From Myxococcales bacterium (GTDB lineage: Bacteria > Myxococcota_A > Polyangia > Palsa-1104): a stretch of DNA of 64,000 bases. Numbering within the stretch: the first letter of the stretch is position 1; the number at the start of each line of letters is the position of its first letter. Shown here in pieces: positions 7,734 to 52,999 of the stretch. The notes beneath the pieces were generated by a model. The model saw only the letters and a program-made list of their open reading frames with translations. It had not been told where the DNA came from and did not search any database. Location: assembly GCA_043741435.1 (NCBI GenBank), contig JAYUBF010000332.1:22279-86278 (forward strand), given 5' to 3'. The translations under genes and the position numbers were made by a program.

Positions 7734-10250
7734 CTAAAACATCGTCGTCGTGTCTTTGCGCGGCGCGGCGGGCAGCTCCGGGAAGTGCGGCTCCGGATCG
7801 GCGTCCTTGTCCTCTTCCATCTCTTCGATCTCGACGGGAGACATGAGGTCGACGGTCTTTTCCTTGTCGGCCTCCGCGCCGTGCTTCTTGCAGTTGTCAC
7901 AGCGGGAGCACATCGGCAGGTCGGTCTCGCCGAAGTACTCGAGGAAGAGTCGCGCACGGCACTTCGTGGAGCGGGCGTACCTGATCATCCACTCGAGCTT
8001 GCCGCGGTCGCCTTCACGGCGCTTGCGGTACTCCTCGGCGGCGCGCCCGATGGTGAGCTCGTCGGGGGCCTCCCCGGTGGCGAGCCAGATGTTGCCGGGA
8101 AGCTCCTCGGCCATGCCGCGATCCTTGAGGACGCCGAGTACGACGCGGGCCTTTTGCTGCGACGTCGCCGCACGCAACGCGATCTCCTTCAGGGAGCCCT
8201 CGCCCGCCGACAAGCCGAAGATGATCTGCCGCATCTCGGTCTTGGTCGGGTACTTGCCACCGACGAAGAACTCCTGCACGGCCTCGTCGTTCGGGTTGTA
8301 GAGGAGGATGCAGCGCGACGGCTTGCCGTCACGGCCCGCACGACCGGCCTCCTGGTAGTAGGACTCGATCGATCCCGGGATGTTCCAATGGATGACGAAG
8401 CGGATGTCCGGCTTGTCGACGCCGAGACCGAACGCGTTGGTCGCGATCATGATGCGCGGTTGGTTGCGCATGAAGTTGCGCTGCGACTCCTCGCGCTCCT
8501 TCGTCGTCATCTTGCCGTGGTACATGCCCACCTTGAGGCCCAGCTTCGGCAGCACGCCATGCAGCGCCTCCACGTCTCGCACCGTCGAGCAGTACACGAT
8601 GCCCGGGCCCTTGATGCGGCGAACCAAGCGGATGAGGCGGCGAACCTGCTGCTTCAGGTCGTTGGCGAAGCGCACGTCGAACGTGAGCGACGGACGGTTG
8701 AAGCCGGTGTGGATCTTGAGCGGGTCTGTCAGCGCCAGCTGCTTCAAGATGTCTTCGGAGACCTGCGGCGTGGCCGTGGCGGTGAGCGCGAGCACCGGAG
8801 GACGGCGGTCTGGGTAGGCAGACGGCATGTCGGTGATGCACTGCTTCAGGCCGAGGTACGCGGGACGGAAATCGTGACCCCACTCGGATACGCAGTGGGC
8901 TTCGTCGACGACGAACAGGCCGACCTTTTGCGCACCGAGCTGCTCGATGAGCGCCCCCGACGCGACACGCTCCGGGGTGGCGTAGATGATCTTGTGGCTA
9001 CCCTTGTCGATGCGCTCGAGGGTGGCGCGCTTCTCCTTGGCGGTCTCGGTGGAGTCGAGACGGGCGCCGACCACGCCGGCACGGCGCAGCTTCTGCAATT
9101 GGTCGCTCATGAGCGCGAGCAGCGGGGACACGACGATGGTCACGCCGGGTAGCTCGAACGCGGTGAGCTGATAGGTCAGCGACTTGCCCGCACCGGTCGG
9201 CATGACCGCGAGCACGTTGCGGCCCTCGAGGAGCGCGCGAATGATCGGCTCCTGTCCGGGACGAAAATCACGAAGGTTGAATTGACGACGGAGGCGACGA
9301 TAGATGGGGTCCGCTGCTTGCGCCGCGCGCAGCGCCTCGACAGCGGGATCGAGTGGTGCATGGCGGTGCTCGGCTTGCCCGAAGCCACCACCACCTCCAC
9401 CTCCACCGCCCCCTCCACGACGGCGACGACGGCGACGACGACCTCCGCCTCCGCCGTGCGCATCCATGCCCGGCGCTTGGCCACCGCCCGACGGTGGGAC
9501 CGGCGCCACGGGACCCGGAGGCGGTCGGTCGAACGTCCGCGGCGGTGGTGGACTTCCGCCAGCCCAGAATGCCTTCGCCGCGATCTCGGTGGCCGTCGGA
9601 GGACGACTGGTCAGCGCCCCCCAGAGTGGATCGGTACGCTTCTCCGGTGCGGCCGGCGCGGCGACGGGTGCAGCCTCCGGCTTCTTCGCAGGGTCCGTCG
9701 CGCGGGCGTCACCGCGCGCCGGACGACGTGCCGGGCCCGCGCCGCGGTCGCGCGACAACAACGGCTCGCCGGGGAGCGCGCGCCCCGCTGACGCCGGGGC
9801 GTCCGCACCGATGGGTTCGACATCGACGCGGGTCTTGGCTTCCCAGCTGTCCGCGGCCGAATCCTCGACGACGGCATCGGGCTTCTTCTTCTTCTTCGCG
9901 ACCGCGACCGGCTTCTTCGCGACCACGACCGGCCTCTTCGCGACCGCGAGCGCCTTCTTCGCCGCTTTCGGCGCCGCTTTCGGCGCCGCTTTGGCGGCGG
10001 CCTTCCCCGGCTTCGCTGCCGCTTTGGCGATGGGCCTCTTCGATGCCGCAATCGGCTTCTTCGTGGCCGCGAGCGGCTTCTTCGTGGCCGCCATGGCGAC
10101 CGGCTTCGCTGCCGCTTTGGCGACGGACGCCTTCGCCGAAGGCTTGGCGGCCGCCTTGGGTGCGGGCTTGGCAGGTGGTTTTTTCGCAGCAGGCTTGGCC
10201 GCCGGCTTCTTGGCAGCGACGGGTTTCTTGGTCTTTTTGGTCGGCGCCAT
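7734..10250 (-). CDS. recQ: RecQ-family ATP-dependent DNA helicase with a long Lys/Ala/Pro-rich (histone-H1-like) N-terminal tail and a Gly/Arg low-complexity stretch
   Basis: Helicase motifs are present: Walker A (MPTGAGKSL), DEAH (VDEAHCVSEWGHDFR), the helicase C domain and the RecQ Zn-binding motif (CRARLFLEYFGE...CSRCDNC). The start is the ATG at 10248-10250 (MAPTKKTKKP). The first 260 aa or so are KKPAAK/AAKP repeats followed by GGGGRRRRRRRRGGGGGGGGGGG. Confidence 0.85.
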   Translation of the reverse strand: MAPTKKTKKPVAAKKPAAKPAAKKPPAKPAPKAAAKPSAKASVAKAAAKPVAMAATKKPLAATKKPIAASKRPIAKAAAKPGKAAAKAAPKAAPKAAKKALAVAKRPVVVAKKPVAVAKKKKKPDAVVEDSAADSWEAKTRVDVEPIGADAPASAGRALPGEPLLSRDRGAGPARRPARGDARATDPAKKPEAAPVAAPAAPEKRTDPLWGALTSRPPTATEIAAKAFWAGGSPPPPRTFDRPPPGPVAPVPPSGGGQAPGMDAHGGGGGRRRRRRRRGGGGGGGGGGGFGQAEHRHAPLDPAVEALRAAQAADPIYRRLRRQFNLRDFRPGQEPIIRALLEGRNVLAVMPTGAGKSLTYQLTAFELPGVTIVVSPLLALMSDQLQKLRRAGVVGARLDSTETAKEKRATLERIDKGSHKIIYATPERVASGALIEQLGAQKVGLFVVDEAHCVSEWGHDFRPAYLGLKQCITDMPSAYPDRRPPVLALTATATPQVSEDILKQLALTDPLKIHTGFNRPSLTFDVRFANDLKQQVRRLIRLVRRIKGPGIVYCSTVRDVEALHGVLPKLGLKVGMYHGKMTTKEREESQRNFMRNQPRIMIATNAFGLGVDKPDIRFVIHWNIPGSIESYYQEAGRAGRDGKPSRCILLYNPNDEAVQEFFVGGKYPTKTEMRQIIFGLSAGEGSLKEIALRAATSQQKARVVLGVLKDRGMAEELPGNIWLATGEAPDELTIGRAAEEYRKRREGDRGKLEWMIRYARSTKCRARLFLEYFGETDLPMCSRCDNCKKHGAEADKEKTVDLMSPVEIEEMEEDKDADPEPHFPELPAAPRKDTTTMF

Positions 10251-49087: not shown

Positions 49088-49305
49088 GCGCTCGGCCAGC
49101 GCCTCTCGCGAGCGGGATCAGCTATCTGCGAGGCCGGGTGACAGGAAGCGCGTCGTTGGAATTGACGACGGCGACAGGTGGCACGTCGATCGAGGGTGCC
49201 ACGGAGACCTACACGCGCGTAGGTGGGCACACGCGCCGGCGCCTCGACGGGAGACCGGGCGGTGCGGTGTTCGGTCTATATAGACGACCACGTTCGATCC
49301 CACTT

Positions 49306-49376
49306 AAGAGGGGTGGTGCTAGATTCAGTTCCAGTGGGAGAAATCCCTTGGGGGGTTCGACCCCCTCTTTCGCACC
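49306..49376 (+). repeat. structured direct repeat copy 1 (about 60 nt; AAGAGG...CCTCTT outer stem, GGGA-GAAA-TCCC tetraloop hairpin, GGGGG-TTCGACC-CCCTC T-arm-like hairpin)
   Basis: About 90% identical to 51719..51780 in the same orientation. It lies in the flgB upstream region. Confidence 0.6.
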
Positions 49377-49849
49377 GATGTAACTCATGTTTTCGGCTCC
49401 TCGCCCTTCGGCTCCGGTTCCACTTCTGCTCAAGCCTCAACGGCACGTTCTCCGAGGGATCGACCGCCGTCACTCAGGACATGGCCGGTGAAGGGGACAT
49501 GTCCGGTGGCGGGCCCTACTCCTGCAACGCGAGCGGGCGCTGCTACGACCTCAAGGGCAACTTCAACAAGGCTGGTGCGGACAACGCCTGCGGGGCTCTC
49601 CAAGCTGGCCTCTCCGCAACGAGCGGTGCCTGCGATCAGACCGGCGCCCTCTACCAAGTGCACCGTCAGCGTCAGTACCGTAGTCTGGTACTACTCGGGA
49701 TCCTCGGCGGCGGCGCAGTCGCACTGCAGCAGCCTCAGCGGCACCTTCTCGACTCTCTGACTGGATTTTCCCTCACTCGCTCAACAAGGAGCGGTGCTGA
49801 GCAATCCTCTACCGCAACGCAAGGTGTAGTCGCCGACCGACGCTCACGC

Positions 49850-50170
49850 TCACGCCGCCTCGACCGCGACCCTGAGCTTGAGGCCACCTGCGGACACAGC
49901 GTCCTGCAAGGCGAGCTGGACCAACACTTGCGCCGGATGTCCGAACGCACGCGCGAATCGAGCTGCCTGCTCAGGGCTCACGAGGCGGCGACCCTTCTCC
50001 ACGTCGCAGAGGTACTGACGCGAGAGGCCGAGCTTCTTCGCGAACTCGACCTGCGACCACTCGTCACGCACGCGCAACGACTCGACCGCCTCACCGAACG
50101 TCACCGGCCCCTTGAGAATCTTGCGCTCCAGCTCATCGACCGAGGAGCCGTTCAATCGCTTTGTGGTCAT
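49850..50170 (-). CDS. XRE-family HTH protein (HigA/antitoxin-like)
   Basis: HTH_XRE core (WSQVEFAKKLGLSRQYLCDVEKGRRLVSPEQAARFARAFG). It sits immediately downstream of the PIN gene on the same strand. Confidence 0.7.
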   Translation of the reverse strand: MTTKRLNGSSVDELERKILKGPVTFGEAVESLRVRDEWSQVEFAKKLGLSRQYLCDVEKGRRLVSPEQAARFARAFGHPAQVLVQLALQDAVSAGGLKLRVAVEAA

Positions 50171-50215
50171 GTCTGTTCACCTCGTCCACGAGCACGGCAC
50201 GCAGCTCGTGAACCC

Positions 50216-50731
50216 TCAGTCGGTGATGATTCCCGGCAACCGCATCGTCTCACCCAGCGGGGCCGTCGATGCATCGAGCACGATGACCCCCGAACTGATC
50301 GCATTGAGCGCAACCGTCATGTCAGCAGCGTTGCCTGTCAGCAAGTAGCGTGCGCCGACGTGGTGGGCGACTGCTGCTATGAGCCGATCGAATTTTACCC
50401 GCACGCGATCAGCGCCAGTCGGGCGCGACGCGATCGTGCGTCCGATGATGTCACCAGCGACGATCGCGGCGTCGGCGTTGAGTGGAGCTACGCGCGTGAC
50501 GCCGAGCACTTCGCCGATCGCCTGGAGCACAACTCCACCGGGGCGCTTCGCGGAGATTTCTGCAAGCACCGGCGCTGGAACGACGATGCCCGCACGCTCC
50601 TTCCTCAGCCGATCGAGGTGTTGCTCCGCGAATCCGCGCCGCTGAAGATCGACGGCGTTCAGCTCCTTGTCAGCCGAGAGGAGCAAGATCAACACGTCGG
50701 AGTCGATCGCGACGACGGGCTTGGGTGCCAT
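50216..50731 (-). CDS. PIN-domain protein (VapC-like putative ribonuclease)
   Basis: N-terminal acidic residue in VAIDSDVLI, with further conserved acidic positions (E in FAEQH, D in KFDRLI, D in NAADM), consistent with the PIN fold. Weak similarity only. Confidence 0.5.
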   Translation of the reverse strand: MAPKPVVAIDSDVLILLLSADKELNAVDLQRRGFAEQHLDRLRKERAGIVVPAPVLAEISAKRPGGVVLQAIGEVLGVTRVAPLNADAAIVAGDIIGRTIASRPTGADRVRVKFDRLIAAVAHHVGARYLLTGNAADMTVALNAISSGVIVLDASTAPLGETMRLPGIITD

Positions 50732-51499
50732 CTACTCGTCCCTGCGGAGTTCTCCAAGGAGCTGAGAACCGCCGAGTGAGATGCCCCTGTCTTCGAGACG
50801 CCTCCTCACCGCACGTACCGTGTTGAGGAAATCATGCTCCTCAAAGGCGTCGATCTTCTCGATCGTGCCTTCCTGATCGAGGCCACCGCGTAGGTAGGTG
50901 ACCTGCGCCTGCACGTTCTTGTCGAAGAGGGGCGCTGACGCCTGCGCGATCTCCGCATCGGTCGTGAAGACGCCTGTGCCGGTGCCATCGGCGTAACGGA
51001 TCGTGACGCGGTAGCTGTTGTTGACGGCTTGCACACCGACGACTCGACCGTAAATCACGTCACCGACCTCGACGTAGCTCGCACGATCCGGCTCCACAGG
51101 AGCGGCGAGGTTGATCTCCTCCTCATCGCGGTCGAGCCGTGAGCGAAAGCGGACGTGGCCGGTCTTCGCAGCGGTGTGCAGTCGGCGGATGCGCTGACGA
51201 ACCTCGGGACCGGAGCCCTCGCCGCGTCGTCGGCAGGCGTCGAGCGTGCGTCGGAGCACCTGCCGCCCCTTCGCCTTGGGACTTCGGAGCGCATAGCCTG
51301 CCGATGCGCTTCGGATCTCCACCAGGCTCAGCTCGGGCATCGGCGCGTTGTGCTCGCGTGCGACGGCCTCGACGAGCGCGATCGTCGCCTCCAACACCGC
51401 GATCGTCTCGCGTACGGGCACGGACTCAGGCGTCACGCCGTCGCCAGCGATGGCGACTTCCAGCTCTCCGCTGCGATCTCTGGAGTTCTTGCGCGCCAT
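50732..51499 (-). CDS. hypothetical protein (255 aa), first gene of the hypothetical/PIN/HTH cassette
   Basis: ORF abutting the PIN gene (stop and start adjacent). No recognisable motif. Confidence 0.45.
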   Translation of the reverse strand: MARKNSRDRSGELEVAIAGDGVTPESVPVRETIAVLEATIALVEAVAREHNAPMPELSLVEIRSASAGYALRSPKAKGRQVLRRTLDACRRRGEGSGPEVRQRIRRLHTAAKTGHVRFRSRLDRDEEEINLAAPVEPDRASYVEVGDVIYGRVVGVQAVNNSYRVTIRYADGTGTGVFTTDAEIAQASAPLFDKNVQAQVTYLRGGLDQEGTIEKIDAFEEHDFLNTVRAVRRRLEDRGISLGGSQLLGELRRDE

Positions 51500-51627
51500 G
51501 CTGCCCCCACCGTATCAAGCGGTGCATCGCTCATCGACTTTATAACACTGAACACAGGTCCAGTCAGCCACTCCGGCTCGTCAGAACTATCGTTTCCGCC
51601 GAGCGACAAGTTGCGTCACAGAGCAGT

Positions 51628-51680
51628 GGCCACAATGGCCACAATCCTGCCAATCATGGCGCTTCCTGACGCTTCCTGAC
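51628..51680 (+). promoter_or_regulatory. short tandem repeats upstream of the cassette (GGCCACAAT x2 at 51628-51645; GCTTCCTGAC x2 at 51661-51680); candidate operator/promoter region
   Basis: Two different perfect 9-10 bp tandem duplications in a locally AT-richer stretch, 130-180 bp upstream of the 50732..51499 start. Confidence 0.3.
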
Positions 51681-51718
51681 GCTGCGACATCGAGGAATAC
51701 CAACAACTTCGCGCCGCG

Positions 51719-51780
51719 AAGAGGCGTTCAGGTTCCAGTGGGAGAAATCCCTTAGGGGTTCGCCCCCCCTCTTTCGCACC
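51719..51780 (+). repeat. structured direct repeat copy 2
   Basis: aagaggcgttcaggttccagtgggagaaatcccttaggggttcgccccccctctttcgcacc, compared with copy 1 aagaggggtggtgctagattcagttccagtgggagaaatcccttggggggttcgaccccctctttcgcacc. Confidence 0.6.
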
Positions 51781-52019
51781 AGCCGAATTACTTGGGGTTC
51801 TGGTTTTTCCTACCGGTCGATGCCTTCTTGCTGTCCCGCTCTCGATTGCCGATTCGGGCAACCGAGGCCAGCACGGCTCTCGCGGCGCGCTGCGACGGCC
51901 GGATATACCGCGCCGTCGTCGAGTAGTGTTTGTGCCCGGCGACGAACATCGTGCCGGGCAGGTTCGCGTTGTTCTCGGCGAGCTGAGTGAGGCGCCCGCG
52001 GCCTTGTCACGCCCCGCGA

Positions 52020-52625
52020 TCAGCGGTGCTTTCGGATTTCCTGCTTCCCCTCGCCTTCGAGCTGGATCCACTTCTTGTCGCGGTTCTTCCAGACCTCGCT
52101 CTGAACCGCGCTCTTCGCGGCAGGCGCAGCGACGCCACCGTACGACGTGGCCGCTTCGTTCGCGCTCTTGTTGATGTCCTGCACCAGCGGATTCGGCATG
52201 CGCGTCGCGGACATGTGGAACTTCGTCGACGAGCTCGGGCTGCCGCGGTGCGAGTCGATACAATAGACGTCGAGCCGGGCGACGATCTTGCCGCCCGCGG
52301 GGATGGTCACCTTCTCCTTGCGCGCCTCGTCACCTTGGATGAGGAACGGGCCGACGGATCCGAGTCGCTGCGGTGCCTCGTTGGGGTTGGCGTCAGGAAC
52401 GAAGAACAACCCCTGCGCGGCGAAGACCTCCGGGTTCTTGCCGTCGTTGCGAACCTCGATGTTGATAGCTCCGTTGGTGGCGCCGTCGTACGAGAGCACG
52501 CGGACGTGAAGGTGAGAAGCTGCAGTTCCCTCGGCCGCGGGCACCGCTACACCGTTGGTGCCGGCAAATGCATTGGTCGCGAGTGCGAGAAACGAGACAG
52601 CGGCGAAGAGCGTGCGCATCGACAT
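52020..52625 (-). CDS. secreted hypothetical protein
   Basis: Signal peptide MSMRTLFAAVSFLALATNAFAG; no motif. Confidence 0.45.
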   Translation of the reverse strand: MSMRTLFAAVSFLALATNAFAGTNGVAVPAAEGTAASHLHVRVLSYDGATNGAINIEVRNDGKNPEVFAAQGLFFVPDANPNEAPQRLGSVGPFLIQGDEARKEKVTIPAGGKIVARLDVYCIDSHRGSPSSSTKFHMSATRMPNPLVQDINKSANEAATSYGGVAAPAAKSAVQSEVWKNRDKKWIQLEGEGKQEIRKHR

Positions 52626-52681: not shown

Positions 52682-52999
52682 TCAGCGACCGCGGTAACCG
52701 GAGACTCGCCCGGTGGGCCGTTCCGCGCGTTCGCAGGTCTCTTCGAGCCGCGCGCGCGCGTTGGCGAGCCGAGCCTGCCAGCGCGCGTCGATCTGCAGCA
52801 CCATGTCGAGCATCGCCTTCTCGCGTGACCCCAGCTTCTGGCCGGCAGCGATGAGCCCTGCCAACTCGCTCAAGATGAGCTGGCGCTCATGCGCGATGAT
52901 CTCCGCCTGGAGCAAGAGCTGATCGAGCGGGATCTCGTCGTCGGGCGGTTGCGGCGTCGCGTCGAACAATCGCTGAAGGGACTGTTCGACCGCGCTCAT
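52682..52999 (-). CDS. hypothetical helical protein downstream of fliS (possible flagellar chaperone, FliT-like by position only)
   Basis: 105 aa, predicted alpha-helical, with its start abutting the fliS stop. No motif identified. Confidence 0.35.
   Translation of the reverse strand: MSAVEQSLQRLFDATPQPPDDEIPLDQLLLQAEIIAHERQLILSELAGLIAAGQKLGSREKAMLDMVLQIDARWQARLANARARLEETCERAERPTGRVSGYRGR

What the first reader, a model, noticed from the sequence alone, without database searches (positions are those of the whole stretch)
49306..51780. A 2.4 kb three-gene cassette (255 aa hypothetical, PIN domain, XRE-HTH) bracketed by two roughly 60 bp structured direct repeats, inside the flagellar locus
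Two imperfect direct repeats of about 60 bp lie at 49306-49376 and 51719-51780, about 90% identical. They flank three co-directional genes:
- a 255 aa protein of unknown function;
- a VapC-like PIN protein;
- a HigA-like HTH protein.

This reads like a toxin-antitoxin or abortive-infection style cassette. It sits between the flgB promoter region and the fliS-fliD genes. The bracketing repeats suggest site-specific insertion, or excision and integration at a repeated sequence.

The gene order of toxin followed by HTH, preceded by a larger unknown gene, is not a classical VapBC pair. It may be an uncharacterised three-component module. An insertion here could also disturb flgB operon regulation.
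Basis: partly seen in the sequence, partly recalled or inferred. Interest (0 to 1): 0.7.

Follow-up and report, generated by a model that had tools for sequence, protein, structure and literature searches.

The report
Decayed tRNA-Leu island carrying PIN module
The two repeats are leftover 3' pieces of a leucine tRNA gene, the scars of an integrase-driven mobile element that has since decayed between two flagellar operons; its only notable cargo is a rare, unstudied gene pair that looks like a toxin-antitoxin pair: a 255 aa protein and a PIN-type RNA-cutting enzyme.

Summary
Two direct repeats flank three minus-strand genes lying between flgB and fliS/fliD.

**The repeats are tRNA fragments.** They are not a REP-like or newly described structured element. 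Both are 3'-partial copies of a tRNA-Leu(CAG) gene:
- Copy B (51727-51781) matches genuine tRNA-Leu(CAG) genes from the anticodon loop to CCA, 53 of 54 bases.
- Copy A (49318-49376) starts in the anticodon stem and carries indels.
- Neither is a functional tRNA.

**An integrase remnant sits beside copy B.** About 72 codons of a tyrosine integrase C-terminus (GH....TT..Y) begin 6 bases right of copy B and point towards it. The region is therefore the decayed remnant of one or two integrative elements that targeted a tRNA gene.

**The conserved unit has two genes, not three.**
- In all 10 other loci examined, a homologue of the 255 aa protein is directly followed by a homologue of the PIN gene. 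Some of those loci lie next to recombinases or IS elements.
- The XRE gene is never with them.
- The four closest loci share a promoter.
- The PIN protein keeps its four acidic residues and folds like VapC.
- The 255 aa partner has no Pfam family and contains a predicted OB-fold.

Best reading: ordinary island decay carrying a VapC-type toxin-antitoxin or defence pair with an unusual partner. Interest is moderate to low.

The parts
49318..49376 (+). Copy A: degenerate 3'-partial copy of tRNA-Leu(CAG), tRNA positions about 26-86, running from the anticodon-stem 5' strand to the 3' end. It has G to A in the anticodon stem, a 1-nt deletion in the anticodon loop, changes at the junction of variable arm and T arm, and a T-loop 1 nt short. 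No CCA.
   Evidence: Alignment to genuine tRNA-Leu(CAG) genes L085 and L088 (blastn E = 4e-12). ARAGORN and Rfam call no tRNA here.
51727..51781 (+). Copy B: 3' half of tRNA-Leu(CAG), from the anticodon loop through the variable arm, T arm, acceptor 3' strand, discriminator A and CCA. One mismatch (A58 to C) against genuine genes.
   Evidence: 53 of 54 bases match L085 tRNA-Leu(CAG) (E = 5e-24). No tRNA is called. Two independent short-read assemblies break inside it.
51788..52006 (-). C-terminal remnant (72 codons plus stop) of a tyrosine recombinase/integrase gene, transcribed towards copy B. It contains the motif G-H-x4-T-T-x2-Y. Its 5' part is missing, and the remnant begins just after the stop codon of the 201 aa gene.
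   Evidence: Translation. Pfam Phage_integrase E = 0.045, model positions 137-169 of 172. PHROG 216 'integrase' E = 0.0021. The only two tblastn hits in plasmids are annotated integrases, E = 0.7. GC3 periodicity 0.87-0.90.
50732..51499 (-). 255 aa protein (called p255 below): first gene of the conserved pair and putative partner or antitoxin. Predicted layout: N-terminal alpha/beta region, OB-fold at about residues 143-218, two C-terminal helices. No Pfam, NCBIfam, PADLOC or PHROG family.
50216..50731 (-). 171 aa PIN-domain protein (called PIN171 below), VapC-like and a putative RNase toxin. Its ATG follows the TAG of the 255 aa gene directly.
49850..50170 (-). 106 aa XRE-family HTH protein, 46 nt downstream of the PIN gene. 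It is not part of the conserved pair. It may be a regulator left over from the element, or an orphan HigA-like antitoxin.
   Evidence: HTH_31 E = 7.9e-11 and HTH_3 E = 1.5e-9. HigA TIGR02607 scores 28.6 bits against a cut-off of 47.7. No relative in any of the other loci carrying the pair.
51539..51567 (-). Conserved sigma-70-like promoter of the 255 aa/PIN operon. The -35 box is CTGACT (51562-51567), the spacer is 17 nt, and the -10 box is TATAAA (51539-51544). A conserved TGTTCAGT block lies in the spacer.
   Evidence: Aligned block TTGACT...TGTTCAGTAT.ATAA is shared by the window, L090, L091 and L092, while the flanks do not align. It is not found by the strict consensus scan.
51509..51523 (-). 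Conserved palindrome ACCGcTTGaTACGGT in the 5' leader just before the ribosome-binding site of the 255 aa gene. Possible operator or leader hairpin.
   Evidence: Conserved in the window, L090 and L091, and partly in L092.
51707..51721 (-). Terminator-like hairpin CTTCGCGGCGCGAAG followed by a T-rich tail, between the integrase remnant with copy B and the promoter of the 255 aa gene. It accounts for the 'acceptor-like' GCGAAG next to copy B.
   Evidence: The number of such sites in the region is no higher than in shuffles, so this is weak evidence. One search shows the 5' resemblance to the tRNA is not significant.
50184..50213 (-). 10-bp inverted repeat (GTTCACGAGC...GCTCGTGGAC on the minus strand) between the PIN stop codon and the XRE ribosome-binding site. 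Function unknown.
49390..49760 (+). Coding-like remnant between copy A and the 3' end of XRE. Strong third-position GC periodicity switches frame near 49600. Probably a frameshifted pseudogene for a small Cys-rich protein, i.e. decayed island cargo.

Best explanation
**What the region is.** The segment from about 49318 to 52006 is the decayed remnant of one or two integrative elements of the kind that insert into a tRNA-Leu(CAG) gene using a tyrosine integrase.
- Such elements carry the 3' part of the tRNA in their attachment site. Each integration therefore leaves a direct repeat of the tRNA 3' half. This is established knowledge (recalled from memory: Williams 2002, NAR).
- Copy A and copy B are those repeats.
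- The stub of an integrase gene pointing at copy B is what is left of a second element to the right.
- Later deletions removed the first 25 or so nucleotides of the tRNA on the left, and most of the integrase plus everything beyond it on the right.
- The result is a 2.35 kb islet without an integrase, lodged between the flgB operon and the fliD-fliS operon.
- A working tRNA-Leu(CAG) must exist elsewhere in the genome.

**The cargo.** It is a self-contained two-gene operon with its own conserved promoter.
- The first gene encodes an uncharacterised 255 aa protein with an OB-fold.
- The second is positioned for translational coupling to the first and encodes a VapC-like PIN nuclease with an intact acidic active site.

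**Most likely mechanism (inferred, not shown).** The pair works as a type II toxin-antitoxin or abortive-infection-like module. The PIN protein cleaves RNA. The 255 aa partner binds and neutralises it, and probably autoregulates the operon through the conserved promoter-proximal sequences.

**The rest.** The XRE gene and the frameshifted ORF remnant are unrelated leftovers of the element.
For: **Shown**
- Copy B matches genuine tRNA-Leu(CAG) genes from the anticodon loop to the 3' end, 53 of 54 bases. Copy A matches over about 61 nt with 2 mismatches and 3 one-base indels.
- Those genuine genes score 51.1 bits on Rfam tRNA. Neither window copy is called a tRNA.
- The ORF remnant next to copy B matches the catalytic C-terminus of integrases in three independent libraries, each weakly.
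- Two independent short-read assemblies carry the identical locus and both break inside copy B. This is expected if its k-mers are shared with the real tRNA gene.
- None of more than 30 Kofleriaceae/Haliangiales relatives has the cassette, or fliS/fliD, within 10 kb upstream of flgB.
- The p255-PIN pair is adjacent in all 10 other loci examined, with a gap of 4 nt or less or an overlap. Sequence identities of the two proteins fall together: p255 73 to 29%, PIN 72 to 35%.
- Contexts of those loci include a large serine recombinase at the end of a phage-like region (L091), an IS transposase (L095), and an island with a DUF1156 protein, an SNF2 helicase and an integrase (L097).
- The promoter and leader palindrome are conserved in four loci.
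- The PIN acidic residues are invariant, and the fold matches VapC toxins best.

**Inferred**
- The order of integration and deletion events.
- The toxin and antitoxin roles.
- Autoregulation.
Against: - No intact tRNA gene lies at either end, so this is not the canonical layout of full tRNA, element, 3' fragment. The history has to invoke two deletions or a transplanted fragment.
- The integrase evidence is weak for each hit taken alone (E = 0.045, 0.0021 and 0.7). A word-based search of 5.8 billion proteins found no homologue of the fragment.
- GC content of the islet (0.62-0.65) is barely lower than that of its neighbours.
- No true empty site could be examined.
- For the toxin-antitoxin reading: the partner is three times the size of any classical VapB and has no recognised DNA-binding or antitoxin domain. 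Both AF2 models are of modest quality (pLDDT about 63). PADLOC finds nothing. No homologues were found in IMG/VR, deposited phages or plasmids. Toxicity and neutralisation are untested.
Confidence: 0.72

Rival explanations
1. The segment from copy A to copy B is still a mobilisable islet without its own integrase. It would resemble a CIME (cis-mobilisable element), excised and re-integrated in trans by a related integrase encoded elsewhere, through recombination between copy A and copy B.
For: The architecture fits: att-like direct repeats flank cargo with no integrase inside. Both short-read assemblies break inside copy B, which could also reflect population heterogeneity at this point.
Against: Copy A has a 1-nt deletion and a substitution in the anticodon stem-loop, the probable crossover region, and shares only 22 contiguous identical bases with copy B. 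The adjacent integrase is a 72-codon stub. The same arrangement, 100% identical, occurs in two separate samples. The assembly break is explained more simply by the genuine tRNA gene.
Confidence: 0.1
2. The cassette is a three-component system in which the XRE protein is the real antitoxin or controller of the PIN toxin (toxin-first order, as in HigBA). The 255 aa protein would be an accessory or sensor component.
For: XRE lies 46 nt downstream on the same strand. It has weak HigA-like and 'Control_protein'/capH-like matches. PIN toxins paired with XRE-type antitoxins are known in general (from memory: Makarova et al. 2009).
Against: None of the 10 other loci carrying the p255-PIN pair has an XRE relative. 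The gene downstream of PIN differs in each, and several are on the opposite strand. The HigA equivalog score is far below its cut-off. The PIN gene is positioned for translational coupling to p255, not to XRE.
Confidence: 0.1
3. The p255-PIN pair is not a toxin-antitoxin or defence module. It would be a dedicated nucleic-acid-processing complex, with the OB-fold subunit as substrate-binding adaptor and the PIN subunit as catalytic unit, serving the mobile element or the host, for example in RNA maturation or turnover.
Against: Distribution is very sparse and patchy: 111 cluster representatives in 1.84 billion, nearly all singletons from metagenomes. Genomic contexts vary and are often linked to mobile elements. 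The pair has a bicistronic, coupled layout and travels with its own promoter. All of this is typical of selfish or defence modules rather than housekeeping genes.
Confidence: 0.15
4. The repeats are a structured regulatory or REP-like element belonging to the flagellar locus, such as insulators or terminators, and have nothing to do with integration.
For: They lie in intergenic DNA between operons and contain hairpins.
Against: They match tRNA-Leu(CAG) genes base for base. Their folding energy is not better than that of shuffles. Only two copies exist in 64 kb. An integrase remnant abuts one of them.
Confidence: 0.02

Closest known systems
Genomic islands and prophages integrated into tRNA genes by tyrosine integrases (anticodon-loop class of attachment sites; Williams 2002, recalled from memory)
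   Same: Direct repeats consist of the tRNA 3' part, starting at the anticodon stem or loop and running to the 3' end. The integrase gene lies immediately next to an att copy and is transcribed towards it, as with lambda int next to attL. The cargo includes a TA-like module and an XRE regulator.
   Different: No intact tRNA gene at either end. The integrase is reduced to about 72 codons. Total size is only about 2.7 kb. Copy A is degenerate. This is a fossil, not an element.
CIMEs: cis-mobilisable elements, att-flanked remnants of ICEs or IMEs that lack an integrase (described in Streptococcus thermophilus; recalled from memory)
   Same: The A-to-B segment has att-like repeats at both ends, cargo inside, and no recombinase of its own. 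It lies in tandem with the remnant of a second element.
   Different: Nothing indicates that the att copies still function, and no helper element is known. The lineage (Myxococcota) and the integrase family are different.
VapBC type II toxin-antitoxin systems
   Same: Bicistronic operon with the partner gene upstream and the PIN gene downstream, stop codon abutting start codon. The PIN protein has four conserved acidic residues and its best fold matches are VapC toxins. Promoter-proximal conserved sequences are compatible with autoregulation. The pair is found on mobile DNA.
   Different: The partner is 255 aa, against 70-90 aa for VapB. It has no AbrB, RHH, Phd or MerR-type DNA-binding domain and no Pfam family, and it contains an OB-fold. 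The PIN protein is longer (171 aa) and falls below the Pfam PIN cut-off. No functional data exist.
HigA / XRE-family antitoxins and mobile-element repressors
   Same: The 106 aa protein has an HTH_31/HTH_3 domain and weak HigA-like matches. It sits in a mobile-element remnant.
   Different: There is no HigB/RelE-type toxin next to it. It scores below the HigA equivalog cut-off. It is not conserved with the neighbouring PIN pair.

Membership tests
Functional tRNA-Leu gene | Complete cloverleaf detected by tRNA finders or covariance models | tested here: not met
   ARAGORN calls nothing at either copy. Rfam gives no tRNA match even at E <= 10. Genuine relatives L085 and L088 score 51.1 bits.
tRNA-targeted integrative element (island or prophage) with tyrosine integrase | Direct repeats made of the 3' segment of the target tRNA gene | tested here: met
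   Copy B matches 53 of 54 bases. Copy A matches over about 61 nt with 2 mismatches and 3 one-base indels. Both were compared with tRNA-Leu(CAG) genes.
tRNA-targeted integrative element (island or prophage) with tyrosine integrase | Intact tRNA gene forming one junction (attL) | tested here: not met
   Sequence 5' of both copies does not resemble tRNA positions 1-25 beyond chance.
tRNA-targeted integrative element (island or prophage) with tyrosine integrase | Integrase gene adjacent to an att site | tested here: inconclusive
   Only a C-terminal stub with GH....TT..Y is present. Pfam E = 0.045, PHROG integrase E = 0.0021, tblastn E = 0.7. No homologue by word search.
tRNA-targeted integrative element (island or prophage) with tyrosine integrase | Absence from the same site in related genomes (empty site) | tested here: inconclusive
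   Absent upstream of flgB in more than 30 relatives. However, these share 70% FlgC identity or less and lack the flgB-fliS juxtaposition altogether.
VapC / PIN-domain toxin | PIN fold | tested here: met
VapC / PIN-domain toxin | Four conserved acidic active-site residues | tested here: met
   D10, E58, D115 and D137 are invariant in 9 homologues at 35-72% identity.
VapBC type II TA system | Small upstream antitoxin with a recognised DNA-binding domain (AbrB, RHH, Phd or similar) | tested here: not met
   The upstream gene encodes 255 aa with no Pfam, NCBIfam, PADLOC or PHROG family. The only confident fold element is an OB-fold.
VapBC type II TA system | Toxicity of the PIN protein and neutralisation by the partner | not testable with these tools
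   This needs expression experiments.
HigA-type antitoxin | Score above the HigA family cut-off, plus an adjacent HigB/RelE-type toxin | tested here: not met
   TIGR02607 scores 28.6 bits against a cut-off of 47.7. The neighbouring gene is a PIN gene, and XRE is not conserved with it.
REP-like or dispersed intergenic repeat | Many copies at unrelated loci | tested here: not met
   Two copies in the 64 kb window. The 22-mer has 0 hits in 185,579 species genomes. Of its 5 hits in JGI metagenomes, 4 lie in ARAGORN-called tRNA-Leu(CAG) genes and the fifth is one such gene cut by the contig end. The rest of the source genome could not be searched.
Known anti-phage defence systems (PADLOC-DB 2.0) | Match to a catalogued defence protein model | tested here: not met
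   No hit for p255 or PIN171. XRE matches only generic HTH/control-protein models.

The most novel reading that the evidence does not exclude
The 255 aa/PIN pair is a previously undescribed two-gene abortive-infection or toxin-antitoxin family. A large partner with an OB-fold holds a VapC-like RNase inactive and releases it on sensing a nucleic-acid cue, for example phage single-stranded DNA or RNA, or a phage SSB-like protein. It would be a PIN toxin with a sensor-type antitoxin rather than a simple VapB.
Probability: 0.2. Interest if true: 0.6.

Novelty: new variant of a known kind. Interest (0 to 1): 0.35.

Why it matters
The repeats themselves are textbook. They show that a tRNA-targeting element once sat between two flagellar operons of a flagellated Kofleriaceae-like myxobacterium and has almost entirely decayed.

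What is worth keeping is the cargo. It is a rare, unannotated and tightly coupled gene pair, with about 111 sequence clusters among 1.84 billion, nearly all from metagenomes. The pair travels with its own promoter and often lies next to recombinases. It combines a VapC-like nuclease with a large partner that has an OB-fold and no known family.

If the pair is a toxin-antitoxin or defence module, it adds a new partner architecture to the PIN toxins and gives a name to a family of hypothetical proteins. It does not open a long-standing question.

Tried and rejected
1. **Functional tRNA or tmRNA at the repeats.** Rejected.
2. **Copies A and B as full tRNA genes with internal deletions.** Both have a 5' stretch (AAGAGGGG in A, GCGAAGAGG in B) that can pair with the 3' end. 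The resemblance to tRNA positions 1-32 is not significant: 1952 of 2000 and 563 of 2000 shuffles score as well. In copy B the GCGAAG belongs to a terminator-like hairpin.
3. **Third copy or right-hand att of the second element.** None found in the window with sensitive blastn.
4. **Source genome in GTDB representatives.** The exact 22-mer gave 0 hits.
5. **Empty site.** Relatives are too distant.
6. **Similarity of p255 to ribosomal protein uL18.** PDB E = 8e-4 with the 5-sequence profile, but the match disappeared with a 60-sequence profile and only 1 of 60 members touches Pfam L18p. Treated as chance.
7. **Relatives of p255 and PIN in other collections.** None in IMG/VR, INPHARED phages or PLSDB plasmids.
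8. **Homologues of the integrase fragment.** None in the 5.8-billion-protein set.
9. **Multi-OB proteins P0102 and P0120.** No informative Pfam domains.
10. **AFDB Foldseek.** The library was unavailable.
11. **Literature on PIN plus OB-fold antitoxin or defence pairs.** Nothing specific found.
12. **Other contexts for the exact XRE protein.** Only the same two contigs.
Full report
**1. The observation**

The two direct repeats are real.
- They are 49328-49376 and 51732-51780, 49 nt at 88% identity without gaps. With gaps they extend a few bases further 5'.
- Their shared 22-mer occurs exactly twice in the window. The expected count was 0.00 in shuffles.
- Between them, all on the minus strand, lie ORFs of 255 aa (50732-51499), 171 aa (50216-50731) and 106 aa (49850-50170).
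- To the left is flgB-flgC-fliE-fliF-fliG. To the right are a 201 aa secreted-looking protein, a 105 aa protein, fliS, fliD and flagellin, also on the minus strand.

The description is therefore correct. Below, the 255 aa protein is called p255 and the 171 aa protein PIN171.

**2. What the repeats are**

By eye the shared sequence looked like the 3' half of a long-arm tRNA: variable-arm hairpin GGGAGAAATCCC, T arm, acceptor strand CTTTCGC, discriminator A, then CC(A).
- ARAGORN and Rfam call no tRNA at either site, even at E <= 10.
- The exact 22-mer has no hit in 185,579 species-representative genomes.
- In JGI metagenomes it hits five contigs. Four carry an ARAGORN tRNA-Leu(CAG) of 85-86 nt at exactly that place, and the fifth is the same gene cut by the contig end. 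Two of these genes score 51.1 bits on the Rfam tRNA model, against a cut-off of 29.
- A Myxococcales relative, L034, has a similar tRNA-Leu(CAG).
- Aligned to these genes, copy B (51727-51781) is the tRNA from the anticodon loop to CCA with a single mismatch, 53 of 54 bases, E = 5e-24.
- Copy A (49318-49376) begins at the 5' strand of the anticodon stem. It carries a G to A change in that stem, a 1-nt deletion in the anticodon loop, changes at the junction of variable arm and T arm, and a shortened T loop.
- Both copies have a short 5' stretch that could pair with the 3' end, so I considered whether both are complete tRNA genes with internal deletions. The resemblance to tRNA positions 1-32 is not better than shuffled sequence. 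In copy B the GCGAAG belongs to a terminator-like hairpin on the other strand.

Both copies are non-functional 3'-partial tRNA-Leu(CAG) sequences. They share no derived changes with each other, which fits independent origins (different att sites) rather than a local duplication.

**3. Integrase remnant**

- Six bases to the right of copy B an open frame on the minus strand (51788-52006) reads ...LAENNANLPGTMFVAGHKHYSTTARYIRPS.... It contains G-H-x4-T-T-x2-Y, the motif around the catalytic tyrosine of tyrosine recombinases (my knowledge of the family).
- It matches Pfam Phage_integrase at model positions 137-169 of 172 (E = 0.045) and PHROG 216 'integrase' (E = 0.0021).
- Its only two tblastn hits in 72,556 plasmids are both annotated site-specific integrases (E = 0.7).
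- Third-position GC reaches 0.87-0.90 in that frame.
- Each hit is weak, as expected for a fragment of about 70 residues, and a word-based search found no homologue. All three hits agree on the family and on the part of the protein.
- The remnant starts just after the stop codon of the 201 aa gene, so the 5' three-quarters of the integrase gene have been deleted.

An integrase gene transcribed towards an att copy is the lambda-type layout (from memory).

**4. Reconstruction (inference)**

Elements that integrate into tRNA genes carry the tRNA 3' part in attP, so every integration adds a direct repeat of it. Successive integrations give the order tRNA, newer element, fragment, older element, fragment.
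- Read this way, copy A is what remains of the tRNA-side junction of element 1 (49377-51726).
- Copy B is the junction between element 1 and element 2.
- The integrase stub is all that remains of element 2.
- Two deletions must then have trimmed the outer edges: the first 25 or so nt of the tRNA on the left, and the integrase 5' part onward on the right. Alternatively, a fragment of such an array was inserted here by illegitimate recombination.
- Within element 1, the 473 nt between copy A and XRE show coding periodicity that switches frame near 49600. This looks like a frameshifted pseudogene and fits decay.
- CUG-decoding tRNA-Leu(CAG) should be indispensable in a genome of about 65% GC, so an intact copy must lie elsewhere.
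- That also explains an independent observation. Two Logan assemblies of different runs contain this locus at 100% identity. In both, the flgB-side contig ends inside copy B (at 51762 and 51764). In SRR23617254, the only run with a fliS-side contig on record, that contig starts at 51739. This is the behaviour of a de Bruijn graph at k-mers shared with another locus.

**5. Relatives**

FlgC-based retrieval places the window in flagellated Kofleriaceae/Haliangiales (Myxococcota) MAG lineages, with best identity only 70%.
- All of these have flgB-flgC-fliE-fliF-fliG.
- None has fliS, fliD, flagellin, the 201 aa gene, p255, PIN or XRE within 10 kb upstream of flgB.
- None has a tRNA adjacent to flgB.

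The cassette is therefore not a conserved part of the flagellar locus. The relatives are too distant to provide a true empty site.

**6. The genes**

XRE:
- The 106 aa protein is an XRE-type HTH protein: HTH_31 E = 7.9e-11. Its HigA equivalog score is well below the cut-off.

PIN171:
- It scores below the Pfam PIN cut-off (E = 0.019).
- The canonical acidic residues (D10, E58, D115, D137 in the T-x-N-xx-D motif) are invariant in nine homologues down to 35% identity.
- NCBI names the closest homologue a VapC family toxin.
- It matches PHROG 21691, of unknown function (E = 1.1e-9).

p255:
- It has no family in Pfam, NCBIfam, PADLOC or PHROGs.
- A word-based search of 5.8 billion proteins finds only four relatives.
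- An exhaustive profile search of 1.84 billion cluster representatives finds 111, of which 76 have E <= 1e-10. Most are 245-270 aa, and none of the 60 scanned has a Pfam domain.
- The ten looked up are all from metagenomes. Eight have no name and two are called only 'hypothetical protein'.
- A uL18 match seen with the small profile vanished with the larger one.

**7. The conserved unit is a pair**

I examined 10 other loci that carry a p255 homologue.
- In every one it is directly followed, on the same strand, by a PIN171 homologue of 167-195 aa, cut short by the contig end in L096 and L101. The gap is 4 nt or less, or the genes overlap.
- In the window the TAG of p255 abuts the ATG of PIN171.
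- The identities of the two proteins fall together: p255/PIN = 73/72, 65/59, 65/64, 55/49, 33/37, 36/37, 31/35 and 29/37%.
- No XRE relative occurs in any of these loci. The gene after PIN is different each time.

Contexts:
- L091: directly after a large serine recombinase, at the end of a phage-like region.
- L095: next to an IS transposase.
- L097: an island with a DUF1156 protein, an SNF2 helicase, an HTH protein and an integrase.
- L090 and L092: ordinary chromosomal neighbours.
- No tRNA genes were found in the loci scanned, and no tRNA-Leu fragments in L090-L093.

Promoter and leader:
- The four closest loci share an upstream block that reads as a sigma-70 promoter, TTGACT, 17 nt, TATAAA. 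In the window the -35 box is 51562-51567 and the -10 box is 51539-51544.
- They also share a palindrome, ACCGnTTGnTACGGT, in front of the ribosome-binding site, while the surrounding DNA does not align.

The pair is therefore a self-contained, horizontally moving operon. XRE is a bystander here, either a regulator left from the element or an orphan antitoxin.

**8. Mechanism**

Shown:
- A PIN nuclease with an intact active-site signature.
- A gene layout consistent with translational coupling to a co-evolving upstream partner.
- Its own conserved promoter.
- Sporadic distribution, often linked to mobile elements.

Inferred:
- A type II toxin-antitoxin or abortive-infection logic in which p255 neutralises the RNase and may autoregulate through the conserved leader or promoter sequences.
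- The OB-fold could bind the operator, the RNA substrate or an infection cue.

The pair fails the classical VapBC membership test on the antitoxin side. It is best described as VapC-like with a new kind of partner, function untested.

**9. Effect on flagellar genes**

About 230 nt of native sequence remain between the flgB start codon and copy A. The arrangement is identical in two independent samples. There is no evidence for or against a regulatory effect.

**10. Verdict**

- The idea of site-specific insertion is supported and made precise: tRNA-Leu(CAG) att scars plus an integrase pseudogene.
- The three-component idea is not supported.
- The island scar is ordinary.
- The cargo pair is a rare, uncharacterised variant of PIN toxin modules and deserves a modest score.

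Noticed in passing
window 9763-9835 (+): ARAGORN calls a tRNA-Val(GAC) here. Rfam finds no tRNA match in 9600-10000 even at E <= 10. Probably a false positive in GC-rich DNA.
   Followed up: partly
window about 38600-62600 (whole flagellar region); loci L003-L035: The window carries a large flagellar gene set: flgB to flgE on one side, and flgF/G, flgA, flgH, flgI, flgM, flgK, flgL, flagellin, fliD and fliS on the other. Its closest relatives are Kofleriaceae/Haliangiales MAGs (Myxococcota), a phylum classically regarded as gliding and non-flagellated. The late-gene cluster abuts the flgB operon only in this lineage.
   Followed up: partly
window 49390-49760 (+): Third-position GC periodicity of 0.8-0.9 switches reading frame near 49600. 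The two frames together would encode a small Cys-rich protein (…GGGPYSCNASGRCYDLKGNFNKAGADNACG… then …CTVSVSTVVWYYSGSSAAAQSHCSSLSGTFSTL*). Looks like a frameshifted pseudogene inside the islet.
   Followed up: partly
window 51624-51641 and 51660-51686: Two sets of short tandem repeats lie upstream of the p255 promoter: CAGTGGCCA/CAATGGCCA, and GACGCTTCCT x2 followed by GACGCTG. They may be binding sites. They are not conserved in the other loci.
   Followed up: no
window 49177-49204: Inverted repeat GGTGGCAC…GTGCCACG about 100 nt upstream of flgB. It contains TGGCAC, the -24 element of sigma-54 promoters, on the flgB strand, but with a poor -12 element. Possible regulator site for the flgB operon (by eye).
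   Followed up: no
window 51739-51764; Logan contigs SRR23617254_58108, SRR23617254_96837, SRR22198255_65844: The flgB-side contigs of two independent short-read assemblies end inside copy B (51762, 51764). In SRR23617254 the fliS-side contig starts at 51739, a 24-nt overlap. The genuine tRNA-Leu(CAG) gene sharing these k-mers is the likely cause. Strain heterogeneity at this point is not excluded.
   Followed up: partly
window 52020-52625 (-) and 52682-52999 (-): Two genes with no family lie between fliS and the integrase stub. One encodes 201 aa with a signal-peptide-like N-terminus, the other 105 aa. No Pfam or NCBIfam match, and not found near flgB in relatives. It is unclear whether they are flagellar accessory genes (for example FliT-like) or island cargo.
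   Followed up: no
L097 1-16786 (contig_20682, 276,898 nt): A p255/PIN homologue pair sits in what looks like a defence or mobile island. Its neighbours are a DUF1156 protein, an SNF2/DEAD helicase of 1150 aa with a NOV_C domain, an XRE HTH gene and a 447 aa integrase-like gene.
   Followed up: no
L091 3216-4382 and 8179-9894: The phage-like region preceding the p255/PIN pair in L091 encodes a RelA_SpoT-domain protein (388 aa) and ends with a 571 aa large serine recombinase immediately upstream of the pair.
   Followed up: no
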